A stretch of 61,304 nt of DNA from a virus. Taxonomy: Duplodnaviria > Heunggongvirae > Uroviricota > Caudoviricetes. The stretch is taken from the IMG/VR virus record IMGVR_UViG_3300015155_000017. One strand, written 5' to 3'. The notes under the pieces were generated by a model. The model was given only the letters and a program-made list of their open reading frames with translations. It ran no database searches and was not told the DNA's origin. The stretch's first letter is position 1. Each line of letters opens with the position of its first letter. Positions 20,057-23,909 of the stretch are shown here, piece by piece. The position numbers and the translations under genes are program-made.

Positions 20057-20638
20057 ATGAAAGGCGAAGTGAAAGAGCGCGGCATGATTTTCAACGATGA
20101 GATGGTCCGGGTAATTCTTGGCGGGAATAAAACACAGACTCGCAGGATTGTTGAAGAAAAATTCTATGGACGGGCAGTGGCCGCAGAGTTGCTTGCTAAG
20201 CATTGTCCATATGGTCAACCGGGCGATCGTATTTGGGTTCGCGAAACCTACCGGGTACATGGCAAAGCGACGGACGTCGCAACGCTGGTTTATCGCGCAA
20301 GCGTGCGTAACTCCTGGACAGAACAAACGCACCGGGTTCCGGTCGAGGTTTGTAATAAACCAGTATCAGAAAAGTGGACGCCATCAATTCACATGCCGCG
20401 CTGGGCATCGCGCATTCTTCTGGAAATTACCAACGTGCGCGTTGAGCGGTTGAACGATATCAGCGAATGTGATGCAAGGGCTGAGGGCGCACCAACAGAA
20501 TCGACCCTCATTGGCGATAAGCATTACCCAGGTTTCCGTAGCCTATGGAAATCAATTTATGGCGAAGATAGTTGGAACGCTAATCCTTGGGTGTGGGTAA
20601 TAGAGTTTGAGCGTATTCAGGGGGCAACCAGTGAGTGA
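20057..20638 (+). CDS. hypothetical protein (193 aa)
   Basis: Strong SD AAGGGGG before ATG. Confidence 0.55.
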   Translation: MKGEVKERGMIFNDEMVRVILGGNKTQTRRIVEEKFYGRAVAAELLAKHCPYGQPGDRIWVRETYRVHGKATDVATLVYRASVRNSWTEQTHRVPVEVCNKPVSEKWTPSIHMPRWASRILLEITNVRVERLNDISECDARAEGAPTESTLIGDKHYPGFRSLWKSIYGEDSWNANPWVWVIEFERIQGATSE

Positions 20639-20891
20639 GTCAAAATGCCAAATTAATGGCAACAAGATAGAGCCGTGCGCGGCGTTGGCACAATCCCTGG
20701 AGCATGACGCTGAATACACGACGCGAAAAGGTCTGCTGAAATACAAAATCTATAACCATGAATTAATTCATTCACAAGACCTGATCATGCTGCGGTCTGG
20801 TGAATTTTCTAAATCGCCTATTCGAGTTTCATTTTGCCCGTTCTGTGGTGAAAGTCTGAAAACGTGGGAAGCGGAGGCAACCAGTGAATAA
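20631..20891 (+). CDS. zinc-ribbon protein (86 aa)
   Basis: GTG start inside shared junction GGCAACCAGTGA; C-x2-C pair CPFCGESL. Confidence 0.45.
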   Translation: MSESKCQINGNKIEPCAALAQSLEHDAEYTTRKGLLKYKIYNHELIHSQDLIMLRSGEFSKSPIRVSFCPFCGESLKTWEAEATSE

Positions 20892-21528
20892 CCGCTTTTA
20901 CATGATGTGCTTGCGTGAAACTGTGGGTAATAACGCCTCATTCCATTGCCATAACGGCAATGGTTACAGTTCTGATATCGATCGCGCTCATGTTTACACG
21001 CTGGAAGAAGCCCAAAAAGCCTGGAATTGTGGGCGAGATATCGATCAGCCTGTTTGCGCTGATAGCGTGGATGCAATGGCTGTGTGGCACGTTGATTGCC
21101 AGTACATCCCCACAGAAAGCCTGATTGAGTCAGATTGCACTGCGTATGTGGCCTACAAAAAAGGTAGCTGGAACGGCAACGATGTTTACTGGCTTCAACA
21201 CGGTGGATTGCCAACAGATGACTTCAGTAAAGCGACCATCTTTAGCGTCGCCAACAAAAACGAACCAGGAATAGTTTGGTTGCCATTTTCCATTGCTGAT
21301 GCAGCAAAGCGTCGGACGTTCAATATCAATAACTTTAGCCGCAGAACAATGGTTCAGGGCGCAGGTTTGGTCATGCCTGACTGGTTGAAAGAGCAGAACA
21401 GAAGAAAGAAGTCGCGAAGCGGGAAGGTGCGTTGGAATTGTCCGCATTGCGGAAAAATAACCTGGCAGTACAGCCCATATGATTTTGAAGGCTGTAGTGA
21501 TTACAACTGTGAAGGATGGCGAGAATGA
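20884..21528 (+). CDS. hypothetical protein (214 aa)
   Basis: GTG start inside the same junction GGAGGCAACCAGTGA; Cys/His-rich. Confidence 0.5.
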   Translation: MNNRFYMMCLRETVGNNASFHCHNGNGYSSDIDRAHVYTLEEAQKAWNCGRDIDQPVCADSVDAMAVWHVDCQYIPTESLIESDCTAYVAYKKGSWNGNDVYWLQHGGLPTDDFSKATIFSVANKNEPGIVWLPFSIADAAKRRTFNINNFSRRTMVQGAGLVMPDWLKEQNRRKKSRSGKVRWNCPHCGKITWQYSPYDFEGCSDYNCEGWRE

Positions 21529-22073
21529 CAATTGACTATCAGGCACTGCGAGATGCGGCAGTTGCAGTAGAAACAGAACCTATGCATCAAAATTTTGTGG
21601 CGTTTCGTATGGCGTTCACGCCATCGGTGGCACTGGCACTACTGGATGAAATTAAGCGGCTGGAAGACACAAATATTGATGCTATGTGCCGTATTGCAGA
21701 GCTTGAGACTAATCTCGCGGCGCTGGTGGCAGAGAACGCCGGACTGAAACACGCAATGGCCGTAACTCTTGAGCATGTGTCGGTCACGGATGCAGGGCAG
21801 GCTGGTGTTGCTGCAATGATTATCAACGATGCCCTACACCACAGCGAAACTCCAGCTACCGATGCTTTCCTGTCTGAAGTGCGGGCGCAGGGGGTGGATG
21901 CTGCTATAGAAGCTGCAAAAAATCTGGTGGCCCAAGAATATGAGTATAAGGATTTCAAAGCGGCGCAGAGTGATTGCTGTATGCACCCTGGTTCAGACCT
22001 GGTAGGGAAGGTTGAAATGACTGAGTGGTTAGTTGACTTTGCTGCCCAGCTTCGCAAAGGAGGCAACCAGTGA
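21525..22073 (+). CDS. hypothetical protein (182 aa), paralogous N-terminus
   Basis: ATGA overlap with upstream stop; MTIDYQALRDAA N-terminus shared with the next gene. Confidence 0.5.
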   Translation: MTIDYQALRDAAVAVETEPMHQNFVAFRMAFTPSVALALLDEIKRLEDTNIDAMCRIAELETNLAALVAENAGLKHAMAVTLEHVSVTDAGQAGVAAMIINDALHHSETPATDAFLSEVRAQGVDAAIEAAKNLVAQEYEYKDFKAAQSDCCMHPGSDLVGKVEMTEWLVDFAAQLRKGGNQ

Positions 22074-22858
22074 GCGAAATTAATTACCAGGCACTGCGTG
22101 AGGCGGCGCAACTGGCAACACAGGGTGAATGGGTCGCATTTATTTCGTCTGGTACTGGTACATATGCGGTGCATACACCTGGTGATAAACGATGTGAAGA
22201 CGTTATCAAATGGACCGGCTTTGATGGACAGAAAAACGCAGAGAACAACGCTCGTTATATCGCAGCTTTCAACCCTGAAGTAGTGCAGGCATTACTGGAT
22301 GAACGGGAAAGAAACCAGCAATACATCAAACGCCGCGATCAGGAGAACGAGGAAATTGCGCTAACGGTAGGGAAGCTGAGAGTTGAGCTTGAGGAAGTAA
22401 AACAACACGCTGAAGAATTATCCGAAACCAAGGCTGTTCGTAACCAATGGCGGCCAGATATTTGCCCAATAACCGGACGTGCATTTTTCATGTGGATTGA
22501 GCATCCAACATTGGGAAATGTGCCGACATATGGTGGCCCATTAGATAGTTACACCATTCCAACAAAGGACGGTGACGGTGAGTTTTCATGTGAGCGTTAC
22601 GATCATGATTTTGGCGGTTGGGTAGAAAGCGAATGTCTTGGGTTATATCTGATTGATGATAGAGAACGATGCAGGGTCTACGAACTGGAGGAACGCGTTA
22701 AGGAACTGGATGCTCGGGAAATATCGCTCCCGGAACGTAGCAGCATGCTTCATCGAACAGATTTTCACGATGATTACCAAACGGTAATGGCATACAAAGT
22801 TTCTGAGGTCATCGCTGCAATCCGCGCCGCTGGCATCCGTATCAACGGAGGTGAGTAG
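22070..22858 (+). CDS. hypothetical protein (262 aa), paralogous N-terminus
   Basis: GTG start in junction GGAGGCAACCAGTGA; MSEINYQALREAA. Confidence 0.5.
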   Translation: MSEINYQALREAAQLATQGEWVAFISSGTGTYAVHTPGDKRCEDVIKWTGFDGQKNAENNARYIAAFNPEVVQALLDERERNQQYIKRRDQENEEIALTVGKLRVELEEVKQHAEELSETKAVRNQWRPDICPITGRAFFMWIEHPTLGNVPTYGGPLDSYTIPTKDGDGEFSCERYDHDFGGWVESECLGLYLIDDRERCRVYELEERVKELDAREISLPERSSMLHRTDFHDDYQTVMAYKVSEVIAAIRAAGIRINGGE

Positions 22859-23034
22859 TGCGTGTGGTATGTATCAGCTTGTTACCGTACCCGACTCGTT
22901 TTTGGGCTTCTGCGCTAATTGCAAAGCCACATGTCCTGATGGCTGACAACATCATCCCGGCACCAAAGCGCCGCCATACCGGTATTGCAGCGGCACGACG
23001 AGCAGCAAAGAGACGCAGGAGAGCAAAGCGATGA
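22858..23034 (+). CDS. small basic protein (58 aa)
   Basis: GGAGGTGA SD with TAGTG overlap; below track cutoff. Confidence 0.3.
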   Translation: MRVVCISLLPYPTRFWASALIAKPHVLMADNIIPAPKRRHTGIAAARRAAKRRRRAKR

Positions 23035-23207
23035 AAAACCGTAAGGCAAAACGACTTTTTTTACAGCGGCCTGTGCGTGTGGTGGAGCTGGTTATTAGCA
23101 ACCATAAGATAGCGGTACTCCATCCATTTGGTCAGGTGGCTTTTGCCGCAAAGCGTAAGCCTACTGCGTCACAGAACAGGCGGAAGAAAGGGTACGCAGT
23201 AAGATGA
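23031..23207 (+). CDS. small basic protein (58 aa), paralog of the next gene
   Basis: ATGA overlaps at both ends; N-terminus MKNRKAK shared with 23204..23392. Confidence 0.35.
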   Translation: MKNRKAKRLFLQRPVRVVELVISNHKIAVLHPFGQVAFAAKRKPTASQNRRKKGYAVR

Positions 23208-23392
23208 AAAACCGTAAAGCAAAGATTCTGTTAGTTCGTAGAAACGCTCCTGGCGTCTGGCAGTGGGTGAGACTCAGCAACCGACGGATGGGGTTGATGA
23301 AATATTACGGGATGATGGATTGTGGTTTTTGCAAAAAGCCCAGCGCGGCGCAAAACCGCTGGAAAAACCATTTGCGCACTAAAGGAGAGTGA
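23204..23392 (+). CDS. small basic protein (62 aa)
   Basis: MKNRKAKILLVRRN...; tandem paralog. Confidence 0.4.
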   Translation: MKNRKAKILLVRRNAPGVWQWVRLSNRRMGLMKYYGMMDCGFCKKPSAAQNRWKNHLRTKGE

Positions 23393-23393
23393 T

Positions 23394-23909
23394 ATGGCGT
23401 TAACACACCGCGAACTCTGTCAAATTGCGTACAAGTTCCTTAAGCGCAACGGGTTCAAGGTTTGTTTTCATGACCGCTTTATAGCTGTAACCAGTACCGG
23501 AGAACAGCCAGATGCTATGGGGTTCAGAAATTCAGCATCATGCCTGATAGAGGCGAAGTGTTCTCGTGCTGACTTGTTGGCAGATAGAAAAAAGCGTTTC
23601 CGTAAAAATCCCTCACTTGGCATGGGCGACTGGCGATTCTTTATTAGTGAGCCGGGAATTATTTCAATTGAGGATTTACCACCTGGCTGGGGATTACTTC
23701 ACGTTGTTAACGGAAGAGTACGGAAAGTACATGGGTGGCCCAAGGGTAATTGCTGTTGGGGTAATCCTGACGATAAGCCATTTACTGGAAATAAGCAGGT
23801 TGAATGCGATTACATGTTATCTGCATTAAGGCGCATGGAGTTGAGAGGGCACCTTAATGAAATATATGACGGTGTAATTGTTAATAAGAAAGAAGGAAAC
23901 GCGGCATGA
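23394..23909 (+). CDS. hypothetical protein (171 aa)
   Basis: AAGGAGAG SD then ATG at 23394. Confidence 0.5.
   Translation: MALTHRELCQIAYKFLKRNGFKVCFHDRFIAVTSTGEQPDAMGFRNSASCLIEAKCSRADLLADRKKRFRKNPSLGMGDWRFFISEPGIISIEDLPPGWGLLHVVNGRVRKVHGWPKGNCCWGNPDDKPFTGNKQVECDYMLSALRRMELRGHLNEIYDGVIVNKKEGNAA

What the first reader, a model, noticed from the sequence alone, without database searches (positions are those of the whole stretch)
20620..23400. Chain of translationally coupled early genes reusing an identical junction cassette
Three successive gene boundaries (about 20622-20636, 20872-20886 and 22055-22072) carry the same GG(A/G)GGCAACCAGTGA sequence, which supplies the SD, a GTG start and the upstream stop in one unit. 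Downstream, four small ORFs (22858..23392) are linked by ATGA or TAGTG overlaps and include two MKNRKAK paralogs. Two larger neighbours share an M-x-I-x-YQALR(D/E)AA N-terminus. This looks like modular shuffling of short genes behind a reusable coupling signal.
Basis: seen in the sequence. Interest (0 to 1): 0.4.

Follow-up and report, generated by a model that had tools for sequence, protein, structure and literature searches.

The report
Reusable gene-junction sequence in phage operon
A 15-base ribosome-binding/start/stop sequence joins genes in an accessory operon of a P1-like phage-plasmid, and the same sequence joins dozens of unrelated gene pairs in E. coli phages exactly where their genomes swap genes, so it is a clear example of the 'boundary sequence' idea of phage mosaic evolution, which is already known.

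Summary
The core observation holds. GG(A/G)GGCAACCAGTGA occurs exactly three times in the window (20620, 20873, 22059), each at a gene junction with a GTG start. That is far more than chance gives.

Two details are wrong:
- The cassette's TGA is the upstream stop only at the third junction. At the first two, the upstream gene reads the cassette in another frame and stops 1-4 nt later.
- There are three small ORFs, not four.

The window is an IncY P1/P7-like phage-plasmid. The block is a C1-repressed accessory operon filled with lambdoid exo-xis-type genes (Ea22-like, EaA-like and unknown).

In viral contigs the same 15-mer joins about 15 upstream and 18 downstream gene families, in 48 combinations. 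Homology between phages starts or stops exactly at it.

A second cassette, AAAGGAGAGTGA(T/G)ATG (window 23381), behaves the same way. It accounts for the unexplained 'K/RGE' C-terminus of Ea22 proteins.

Best reading: the cassette is a translational-coupling signal that also serves as short shared homology for swapping gene modules. This is a new, well-documented member of the conserved boundary sequences proposed for lambdoid phages. Both coupling and recombination are inferred, not shown. Interest is moderate to low.

The parts
19862..19878 (+). C1 repressor operator (ATTGCTCTAATAAATCT). It matches P1 OpmgT/Op88 and P7 Op(hea) and marks the start of the repressor-controlled operon.
   Evidence: 1 mismatch to the C1 operator consensus. 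It sits directly after pap, as in P7 and P1.
20057..20638 (+). Gene 1, 193 aa, P7 Upf86.8-like (phrog_874), function unknown. It reads cassette copy 1 in the +1 frame and ends ...IQGATSE*.
20620..20634 (+). Cassette A copy 1, GGGGGCAACCAGTGA: SD-like GGGGG, a 6-nt spacer, and GTG at 20631. The upstream stop is at 20636-20638 (GTGAGTGA overlap).
   Evidence: The G at position 3 follows the Upf86.8 family in 4 of 4 loci, whatever the downstream gene.
20631..20891 (+). Gene 2, 86 aa, GTG start, P7 Upf87.4-like (phrog_4030).
   Evidence: Third-codon-position excess of variable sites.
20873..20887 (+). Cassette A copy 2, GGAGGCAACCAGTGA, with GTG at 20884. The upstream stop TAA is at 20889-20891.
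   Evidence: Eight loci, including a Stx2c phage and a P1 variant, begin homology exactly at 20873.
20884..21528 (+). Gene 3, 214 aa, GTG start, P7 Upf87.6-like (phrog_2457). It behaves as a mobile module: block 20873-21561 is 97-99% identical in lambdoid prophages behind different upstream genes.
21525..22073 (+). Ea22-like gene 1, 182 aa, ATG start in an ATGA overlap. Its C-terminus ...FAAQLRKGGNQ* is encoded by cassette copy 3.
   Evidence: Pfam PF13935, E = 1e-9
22059..22073 (+). Cassette A copy 3, GGAGGCAACCAGTGA, with GTG at 22070. Here the cassette TGA is the upstream stop (GTGA overlap). It lies in a conserved ~80-nt island, 22041-22118.
   Evidence: In one search, 71 homology blocks begin at 22031-22059 and 61 end at 22100-22119. 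The island is present in 922 of 5426 complete E. coli genomes.
22070..22858 (+). Ea22-like gene 2, 262 aa, GTG start. It ends ...AAGIRINGGE*, and those codons carry the SD for the next ORF.
   Evidence: Pfam PF13935, E = 3e-34
22858..23034 (+). Small ORF of 58 aa (phrog_13831), GTG start in a TAGTG overlap. Whether it is coding is uncertain.
   Evidence: No codon-position bias among homologs (7:7:7). Absent from P7.
23031..23207 (+). Small ORF of 58 aa, MKNRKAK paralog 1 (phrog_1380), ATGA overlap. It is an extra copy that some relatives lack.
   Evidence: L079 and L115 carry a single copy, with the joint in the 21-nt repeat.
23204..23392 (+). Small ORF of 62 aa, MKNRKAK paralog 2 (phrog_1380), ATGA overlap. 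It ends ...LRTKGE*, encoded by cassette B.
23381..23396 (+). Cassette B, AAAGGAGAGTGATATG: K-G-E-stop codons that form the SD (AAGGAG), then TGA, one base, and ATG of the next gene.
23394..23909 (+). Gene of 171 aa (phrog_9263/631), function unknown. In P7 it is joined directly to the Ea22-like gene through cassette B.
23906..24769 (+). EaA-like gene, 287 aa, with a C-terminal DUF551 domain; ATGA overlaps on both sides.
   Evidence: Pfam PF04448, E = 3e-9

Best explanation
The 15-mer (A)AAGGAGGCAACCAGTGA is a portable translation-initiation and coupling signal. It carries a Shine-Dalgarno GGAGG, a 6-nt spacer, a GTG start, and a TGA that overlaps the start.

It sits inside the 3' end of the upstream gene in a tightly packed, C1-repressed accessory operon of a P1/P7-like phage-plasmid. 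Ribosomes finishing the upstream gene would restart at the GTG.

Many unrelated accessory genes of Escherichia/Salmonella temperate phages (lambdoid exo-xis/early-left operons and the P1 pmgT locus) carry the same sequence on one or both sides. It therefore also acts as a short patch of shared homology at which whole genes are exchanged between phages without disturbing expression.

A second cassette, AAAGGAGAGTGA(T/G)ATG, and the conserved 5' and 3' ends of Ea22-like genes play the same role.

Shown here:
- the sequence, its positions and its reading frames;
- SD complementarity;
- the promiscuous gene partners;
- the coincidence with homology breakpoints.

Inferred, not shown:
- that translation is actually coupled;
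- that the crossovers happen by homology-guided recombination in the cassette, rather than the cassette marking where selection tolerates joints.
For: (1) Three exact copies in the window, against 0.21 expected.

(2) Anti-SD duplex energies are -9.4 to -11.6 kcal/mol, with a 6-nt spacer to GTG. Every junction from 20057 to 24849 is either overlapping or separated by at most 9 nt. No internal promoters or terminators were found above background, and a C1 operator lies upstream.

(3) The cassette is read in two different upstream frames: 85 junctions in frame 0 and 37 in frame +1, of 124. Its conservation is therefore at the nucleotide level, not the protein level.

(4) In viral contigs, 124 junctions with the exact 15-mer form one connected network of 15 upstream and 18 downstream protein families, with 48 distinct pairs among 113. 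In 116 of the 124, the GTG opens an ORF of at least 60 aa or one that runs off the contig.

(5) Breakpoints coincide with the cassette:
- homology to the window begins exactly at 20873 in 8 loci;
- it begins at 20619 in 2 loci;
- it ends at 20635 in L043;
- megablast hits in Stx phages start at 20873 and near 22055.

(6) The A/G at cassette position 3 segregates with the upstream gene family in 4 of 4 cases, while the downstream gene varies. This places the joints inside the last 12 nt.

(7) In loci found without using the cassette, the same junction carries 1-nt variants (GGAGGCAGCCA, GGAGGCATCCA). Most changes are in the spacer.

(8) Cassette B shows the same promiscuity, with 9 upstream and 16 downstream families connected. 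P7 differs from the window by a module bounded by cassette B.

(9) The boundary-sequence model is established in the literature: Susskind & Botstein 1978 and Clark et al. 2001, as cited in PMC3233612. Phage Rad52-like recombinases recombine short, diverged homologies (PMC3945230).
Against: - 12-15 nt is below the minimal efficient pairing length quoted for Red-beta (23-27 bp) and RecA (31-34 bp) (PMC3945230). Recombination at junctions 1 and 2 would therefore be rare or microhomology-mediated.
- The viral-contig sets were found by exact match to the cassette, so its invariance there is by construction.
- In the anchor-based sample, only about 58% of Ea22-like 5' ends have this junction type (69 of 118), and that sample is itself enriched for cassette loci.
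- There are no expression or recombination data.
- The RNA around the three copies has no shared or unusually stable structure that would enforce strict coupling.
- L065 shows a Upf87.4-like gene with the exact cassette on its right but only a diverged relative on its left.
Confidence: 0.65

Rival explanations
1. The cassette is only a good ribosome-binding site and start. Gene shuffling happens by illegitimate recombination at random positions, and selection keeps only joints at gene boundaries. The cassette is shared because it travels with one of the two genes.
For: The SD, spacing and start are all conventional. 15 nt is shorter than the known minimal pairing lengths. Many mosaics lack detectable flanking homology (PMC3945230; PMC3233612).
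Against: The same 15-mer, including its functionally neutral spacer CAACCA, flanks at least 15 unrelated upstream and 18 unrelated downstream families in both directions. It cannot belong to just one partner. Position 3 follows the upstream gene while the bases after TGA follow the downstream gene, so the joints lie inside the cassette. Convergent evolution of an identical spacer is implausible.
Confidence: 0.2
2. The similarity is only the conserved ends of a paralogous gene family. Tandem Ea22-like genes share a C-terminal ...AAQLRKGGNQ* and an N-terminal VS(K/E)I(D/N)YQALREAA, so the similarity is a coding repeat rather than a signal.
For: Junction 3 sits in an ~80-nt conserved island made of exactly these ends. 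Ea22-like genes are the commonest partners on both sides.
Against: Junctions 1 and 2 join non-Ea22 genes, share only about 15-20 nt, and are read in a different frame (..GATSE*..EATSE*). Non-Ea22 downstream families (D1, D2, D3, D5-D9, D23) carry the cassette too.
Confidence: 0.08
3. The cassette is a shared operator on the mRNA, bound by a phage or host RNA-binding protein or sRNA. That factor would co-regulate translation of many accessory genes, as T4 RegA does.
For: The whole initiation region, including the spacer, is strongly conserved at several genes of one operon and across phages.
Against: No candidate regulator was identified. There is no conserved RNA structure. Spacer variants occur naturally. 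Recombinational spread explains the identity without any extra factor.
Confidence: 0.04

Closest known systems
Conserved boundary ('linker') sequences between functional modules of lambdoid phages (modular theory of Susskind & Botstein 1978; Clark et al. 2001, coliphage HK620, J Mol Biol 311:657), cited in PMC3233612
   Same: Short sequences at gene boundaries that are conserved between otherwise unrelated flanks and coincide with mosaic joints. They are proposed to be sites of homologous recombination. HK620 itself carries a 1-mismatch copy (GGAGGCAGCCAGTGA) at its hkaH/hkaG (Ea22-like) junction.
   Different: I could not read Clark et al., so I do not know whether this 15-mer is among their boundary sequences. 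The exact string is absent from the searchable literature. Here the boundary sequence is also a complete SD-start-stop unit. It works in two upstream frames and is shared between lambdoid prophages and P1-like phage-plasmids.
Translational coupling through overlapping stop/start codons (ATGA, GTGA) in polycistronic phage and bacterial operons
   Same: The SD is embedded in the end of the upstream ORF, the start overlaps or abuts the stop, and there is no intergenic space.
   Different: Ordinary coupled junctions are gene-specific in sequence. Here one identical 15-mer is reused at three junctions in one operon and at over a hundred junctions between unrelated genes elsewhere.
Relaxed homologous recombination by phage Rad52-like recombinases as the source of mosaics (De Paepe et al. 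2014, PMC3945230; Martinsohn et al. 2008)
   Same: Mosaic segments of a few hundred bp, at 95-99% identity, are bounded by short patches of similarity.
   Different: That study's 24 temperate genomes showed recent exchange only within the lambda-like group or within the P1-P2-Mu group. This operon shows 96-99% identical gene modules shared between a P1-like plasmid and Stx/lambdoid phages. The homology patch at junctions 1 and 2 is shorter than the quoted minimal pairing length.
Integron gene cassettes with attC sites
   Same: An array of small, promoterless, independently exchangeable genes expressed from one upstream promoter, each bounded by a recognisable repeat.
   Different: No imperfect-palindrome attC-like hairpin is present and no integron integrase was seen next to the array. 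The repeat is an SD-start-stop unit inside coding sequence. The resemblance is analogy only.

Membership tests
Conserved boundary/linker sequences of phage mosaic modules | A short sequence conserved between genomes whose flanks on one or both sides are unrelated | tested here: met
   The same 15-mer lies between 15 upstream and 18 downstream protein families, forming 48 distinct pairs. The three window copies share nothing beyond about 20 nt.
Conserved boundary/linker sequences of phage mosaic modules | Located at gene boundaries | tested here: met
   All three window copies and 116 of 124 network copies precede a GTG ORF of at least 60 aa or one that runs off the contig. The upstream ORF stops within 12-22 nt of the cassette start.
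Conserved boundary/linker sequences of phage mosaic modules | Homology breakpoints between genomes coincide with the sequence | tested here: met
   Homology blocks start at 20873 (8 loci) and 20619 (2 loci) and end at 20635 (L043). At junction 3, 71 blocks begin and 61 end around the island.
Conserved boundary/linker sequences of phage mosaic modules | Recombination actually takes place within the sequence | not testable with these tools
   Only indirect evidence: the variant at cassette position 3 is linked to the upstream gene and the bases after TGA to the downstream gene. Genetic crosses are needed.
Translationally coupled overlapping junction | Shine-Dalgarno complementarity 5-9 nt upstream of the start, inside the upstream ORF | tested here: met
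   GGAGG/GGGGG with a 6-nt spacer. Duplex energies with the 16S 3' end are -9.4, -9.5 and -11.6 kcal/mol.
Translationally coupled overlapping junction | The start codon overlaps or abuts the upstream stop codon | tested here: met
   Overlaps are 8, 8 and 4 nt at the three cassettes. The other junctions of the operon are ATGA or TAGTG overlaps, or gaps of 1 or 9 nt.
Translationally coupled overlapping junction | Downstream translation depends on upstream translation | not testable with these tools
   Needs reporter or ribosome-profiling experiments. No SD-sequestering structure is predicted.
Ead/Ea22-like proteins (Pfam PF13935), the two 'larger neighbours' | Significant match to the Pfam model above its gathering score | tested here: met
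   21525-22073 scores 39.4 bits and 22070-22858 scores 118.9 bits; the cut-off is 27.
Integron attC gene cassettes (considered) | An imperfect inverted repeat that folds into an attC hairpin at each cassette boundary | tested here: not met
   No shared or unusually stable fold around the three copies; z-scores are -0.21, +0.82 and -1.40.
P1/P7-like phage-plasmid (genomic context) | Synteny and near-identity with P1/P7 around the locus, C1 operators, IncY replicon in the closest record | tested here: met
   P7 is 98.9% identical over 71% of 20000-24000. There are 15 C1-operator matches against 0.28 expected. The window is 99.9% identical to IncY plasmid NZ_LR890538.1. The hot-humD-phd-doc-pdcB-lpa-pacA order lies downstream.

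The most novel reading that the evidence does not exclude
The cassettes could be more than passive homology. They might form a dedicated, self-propagating connector system: a small set of standard SD-start-stop linkers (cassette A, cassette B and the Ea22 gene ends). These would make accessory genes plug-and-play across unrelated temperate phage lineages, lambdoid and P1-like. They would be maintained because they raise the exchange rate, or because a specific factor, a recombinase or an RNA-binding regulator, recognises them. That would be an integron-like gene-cassette system without an integrase.
Probability: 0.08. Interest if true: 0.75.

Novelty: new member of a known kind. Interest (0 to 1): 0.35.

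Why it matters
Whether phage mosaicism comes from homologous recombination at short conserved boundary sequences, or from random illegitimate joints filtered by selection, has been debated since 1978.

This cassette gives a concrete natural test system:
- it is an identical 15-mer;
- it has more than 100 natural junctions;
- it works in two upstream reading frames;
- it has defined partner families;
- it is present in about 17% of complete E. coli genomes, on both chromosomal prophages and P1-like plasmids.

It also shows gene traffic between lambdoid Stx phages and P1-like phage-plasmids in an early, repressor-controlled accessory operon.

It offers a simple explanation for terminal peptide motifs of Ea22-family proteins (KGGNQ, and the 'R/KGE of unknown significance'). 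These tails are imposed by the nucleotide-level junction signal. That matters for people doing structure-function work on Ea22.

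Tried and rejected
- Chance: rejected.
- Structured RNA or attC-like element: folding the three junctions gave no shared or significant structure.
- Part of a larger coding repeat: rejected for junctions 1 and 2 because of the frame difference and the lack of flanking similarity. It is partly true for junction 3.
- Host-range scan of genome contigs with the 17-mer AAGGAGGCAACCAGTGA: uninformative. It gave 82 hits against about 69 expected by chance in 596 Gb (my calculation). Only two of the listed hits were from Escherichia.
- Literature search for the exact string: no relevant hit. 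Clark et al. 2001 is not held in the library.
- Coding test for the small ORFs by codon-position bias among homologs: inconclusive. The 58-aa ORF at 22858 showed no bias (7:7:7), the 62-aa ORF showed weak bias, and there were too few sites for the other. The larger ORFs show a clear third-position excess.
- L065 as a gene flanked by two exact cassettes: corrected after reading the sequence. Its left junction is only a diverged relative, GGGAGGGATTCAAGCAATGA.
- First single-linkage clustering of flanking proteins over-merged families. It was redone with identity and coverage thresholds.
- Reference P1 and phage lambda do not carry cassette A.

Full report
**Context**

The window is a P1/P7-like phage-plasmid.
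- Region 20000-24000 is 98.9% identical to phage P7 over 71% of its length.
- 19800-25200 is 99.9% identical over its full length to the IncY E. coli plasmid NZ_LR890538.1.
- The block lies directly after pap and a C1 repressor operator at 19862-19878. This is the position of P7 Op(hea) and P1 OpmgT/Op88.
- It is followed by hot, humD, phd-doc, pdcB, lpa and pacA, as in P1.
- Reference P1 has only pmgT-U-V at this locus and no cassette.
- Among 1265 matching plasmid records, only 9 cover at least 80% of the block. The locus is therefore a hypervariable accessory operon.
- Its genes are of the lambdoid exo-xis/early-left type: two Ead/Ea22-like proteins, an EaA-like DUF551 protein, and families of unknown function.

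**The observation**

GG(A/G)GGCAACCAGTGA matches exactly at 20620, 20873 and 22059, and nowhere else even with two mismatches. Chance expectation is 0.21, and 0 of 100 shuffles reach three matches. The copies share nothing beyond about 20 nt.

In each copy GGAGG/GGGGG lies 6 nt before a GTG that opens an ORF of 86, 214 or 262 aa. Predicted pairing to the 16S 3' end is -9.4 to -11.6 kcal/mol. RefSeq annotation of the near-identical plasmid uses the same starts.

- At junctions 1 and 2 the upstream gene reads the cassette in the +1 frame (…GATSE*, …EATSE*). It stops after the cassette, giving an 8-nt overlap.
- Only at junction 3 is the cassette TGA the stop (…RKGGNQ*).
- The boundary at 21525 is an ordinary ATGA overlap, so the three cassette junctions are not consecutive.
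- 22858-23392 contains three small ORFs, not four.

Confirmed sub-claims:
- The two MKNRKAK ORFs are genuine paralogs (both phrog_1380).
- The two larger neighbours are both Ea22-like and share the N-terminus.

The whole operon from 20057 to 24849 is packed with overlapping or abutting junctions, each with an SD. No internal promoter or terminator signal rises above background.

**Elsewhere**

Of 139 occurrences, including the window, 124 fall in one network of enterobacterial phage operons. The other 15 fall outside that network, mostly in unrelated contigs.

After clustering the flanking ORFs (at least 35% identity, at least 60% coverage), the cassette joins 15 upstream and 18 downstream families in one connected bipartite graph. 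There are 48 distinct family pairs among 113 scorable junctions.
- One upstream family has 12 different downstream partners, and one downstream family has 12 different upstream partners.
- Ea22-like genes are the commonest partners on both sides.
- Non-Ea22 families, including all three window genes, take part too.
- The upstream gene is in frame 0 in 85 junctions and in frame +1 in 37 of the 124. The conservation is therefore at the nucleotide level.
- In 116 of the 124, the GTG opens an ORF of at least 60 aa or one that runs off the contig.

**Breakpoints**

I ran blastn of window 19300-26000 against the loci.
- Homology begins exactly at 20873 in eight loci. These include a Stx2c-converting phage and a P1 variant that were found by similarity search, not by the cassette.
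- It begins at 20619 in two loci.
- It ends at 20635 in L043, where the Upf86.8-like gene is followed by an Ea22-like gene instead.
- The megablast hits show the same pattern: Stx phages start at 20873 or near 22055.

Block 20873-21561 (the 214-aa gene) is 97-99% identical in lambdoid prophages behind different upstream genes. It behaves as a mobile module, bounded on the left by the cassette and on the right by the conserved 5' end of an Ea22-like gene.

Junction 3 lies in an ~80-nt island (22041-22118). The island consists of the conserved 3' end (…AAQLRKGGNQ*) and 5' end (VS(E/K)I(N/D)YQALREAA) of Ea22-like genes. There, 71 homology blocks begin and 61 end. The island occurs in 922 of 5426 complete E. 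coli genomes, at 834 chromosomal and 285 plasmid places, under varied gene pairs.

The G at cassette position 3 follows the Upf86.8 family in 4 of 4 cases, whatever the downstream gene. The bases after TGA follow the downstream family. This places the joints within the last 12 nt.

**Ascertainment**

The cassette's invariance in the set is by construction, so I sampled Ea22-like 5' ends with a downstream anchor instead.
- 69 of 118 have a cassette-A type junction. Of these, 49 are exact and 20 carry one or two changes, mostly in the spacer.
- The rest use four or five other recurrent junction types. One is lambda's own (AGAGGTTCGAAGTG) and another is the window's junction at 21525.
- This sample is itself enriched for cassette-bearing loci, so 'about half' is an upper estimate.

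Similarity-derived loci carry 1-nt variants at the same junction. HK620 has GGAGGCAGCCAGTGA at hkaH/hkaG.

**A second cassette**

The end of the 62-aa ORF and the start of the 171-aa gene form AAAGGAGAGTGATATG (23381-23396). These are K-G-E-stop codons that double as the SD, followed by ATG.
- In the loci, about 100 long ORFs end in [K/R]GE*, and nearly all use AAAGGAGAGTGA(T/G)ATG followed by many different genes.
- A dedicated scan shows 9 upstream and 16 downstream families connected through it.
- P7 lacks the three small ORFs. Its Ea22-like gene ends …AAGIRIKGE* and joins the 171-aa gene through this cassette.
- Lambda ea22 ends AAAGGAGAGTGAGATC, with no start codon after the stop; I read this as a relic of the cassette.

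[quoted passage not shown] The motif would be imposed by the junction signal. This is my inference.

The two MKNRKAK genes share a 21-nt 5' repeat (23030-23050 and 23203-23223). L079 and L115 carry a single copy whose joint lies in that repeat.

**Mechanism**

Best explanation (confidence about 0.65): the cassette is a translational-coupling unit that also serves as shared micro-homology for exchanging gene modules in register. Any incoming gene is then expressed immediately.

Identity by descent spread through recombination explains why the functionally neutral spacer is identical between unrelated genes. Convergence on an optimal ribosome-binding site does not.

Caveats:
- 12-15 nt is below the minimal efficient pairing length quoted for Red-beta and RecA (PMC3945230). 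Events at junctions 1 and 2 must therefore be rare or microhomology-mediated. The ~80-nt island at junction 3 is long enough.
- No RNA structure was found.
- Coupling and recombination are not shown here.

**Comparison with what is known**

The concept is the boundary or linker sequence of the modular theory: Susskind & Botstein 1978, and Clark et al. 2001 on HK620, as cited in PMC3233612.
- I could not read Clark et al..
- The exact string is not in the searchable literature.
- Gene flow between P1-like phage-plasmids and phages is known in general (PMC10879196).
- An earlier 24-genome study saw no recent exchange between the lambda-like and P1-P2-Mu groups (PMC3945230).

**Verdict**

- This is a real, non-random feature.
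- It is a well-documented new member of a known kind.
- It has moderate value as a test system for the boundary-sequence model and as an explanation of the Ea22 terminal motifs.

Noticed in passing
L015, L020, L028, L044, L046, L062, L104 and others, about 25-35 nt upstream of the cassette (for example L015, minus strand, near 2770): One upstream gene family (...IRGSLFFRASQRRSAK) contains a T7-T9 homopolymer run just before the cassette. Two overlapping frames are open there (76 aa against 142-149 aa), and the run length differs between loci. This could be a frameshift-prone or phase-variable site, or sequencing noise.
   Followed up: no
L125 (lambda NC_001416), 3' end of ea22, record about 29847: Lambda ea22 ends AAAGGAGAGTGAGATC. 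This is cassette B with no start codon after the stop (ATC where the cassette has ATG) and no coupled downstream ORF, which I read as a relic junction.
   Followed up: partly
window 23204-23909: PHROG phrog_9263 (230 aa) matches the 62-aa MKNRKAK ORF over profile positions 1-61 and the next gene (171 aa) over positions 62-230. In some phages the two are therefore annotated as one fused protein. In the window they are separated by TGA plus a +1 shift.
   Followed up: no
window 24278-24342: A tandem 33-nt direct repeat (78% identical) lies inside the EaA-like gene. It encodes two copies of an 11-aa unit (NFRENKNSSTN / NFREIAETSTN).
   Followed up: no
window 19961-20047 and 24766-24849: Two very small ORFs (28 and 27 aa) with hydrophobic, membrane-like sequences and strong SDs. 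One sits at the head of the operon and the other after the EaA-like gene. The second has a near-perfect AAGGAGGTGA SD (-18.7 kcal/mol).
   Followed up: no
window 22283-22392 and 21846-21898: Short islands inside the Ea22-like genes (for example LLDERERNQQYIKRRDQENEEIALTVGKL) are shared with many otherwise different Ea22-like genes; about 60 and 23-35 homology blocks respectively start and stop there. This indicates mosaicism within genes as well as between them. P7 upf88.3 is a three-part hybrid relative to the window's two Ea22-like genes.
   Followed up: partly
window 22858-23034: The 58-aa ORF (phrog_13831) shows no codon-position bias among 10 distinct homologs (7:7:7 variable sites; 7 synonymous, 15 non-synonymous). 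It may not be a protein-coding gene under purifying selection despite being annotated in some records.
   Followed up: partly
window 710-51027 (15 sites): There are 15 matches to the P1 C1 operator consensus across the window, against 0.28 expected by chance. This is consistent with a complete P1-type immunity regulon.
   Followed up: no
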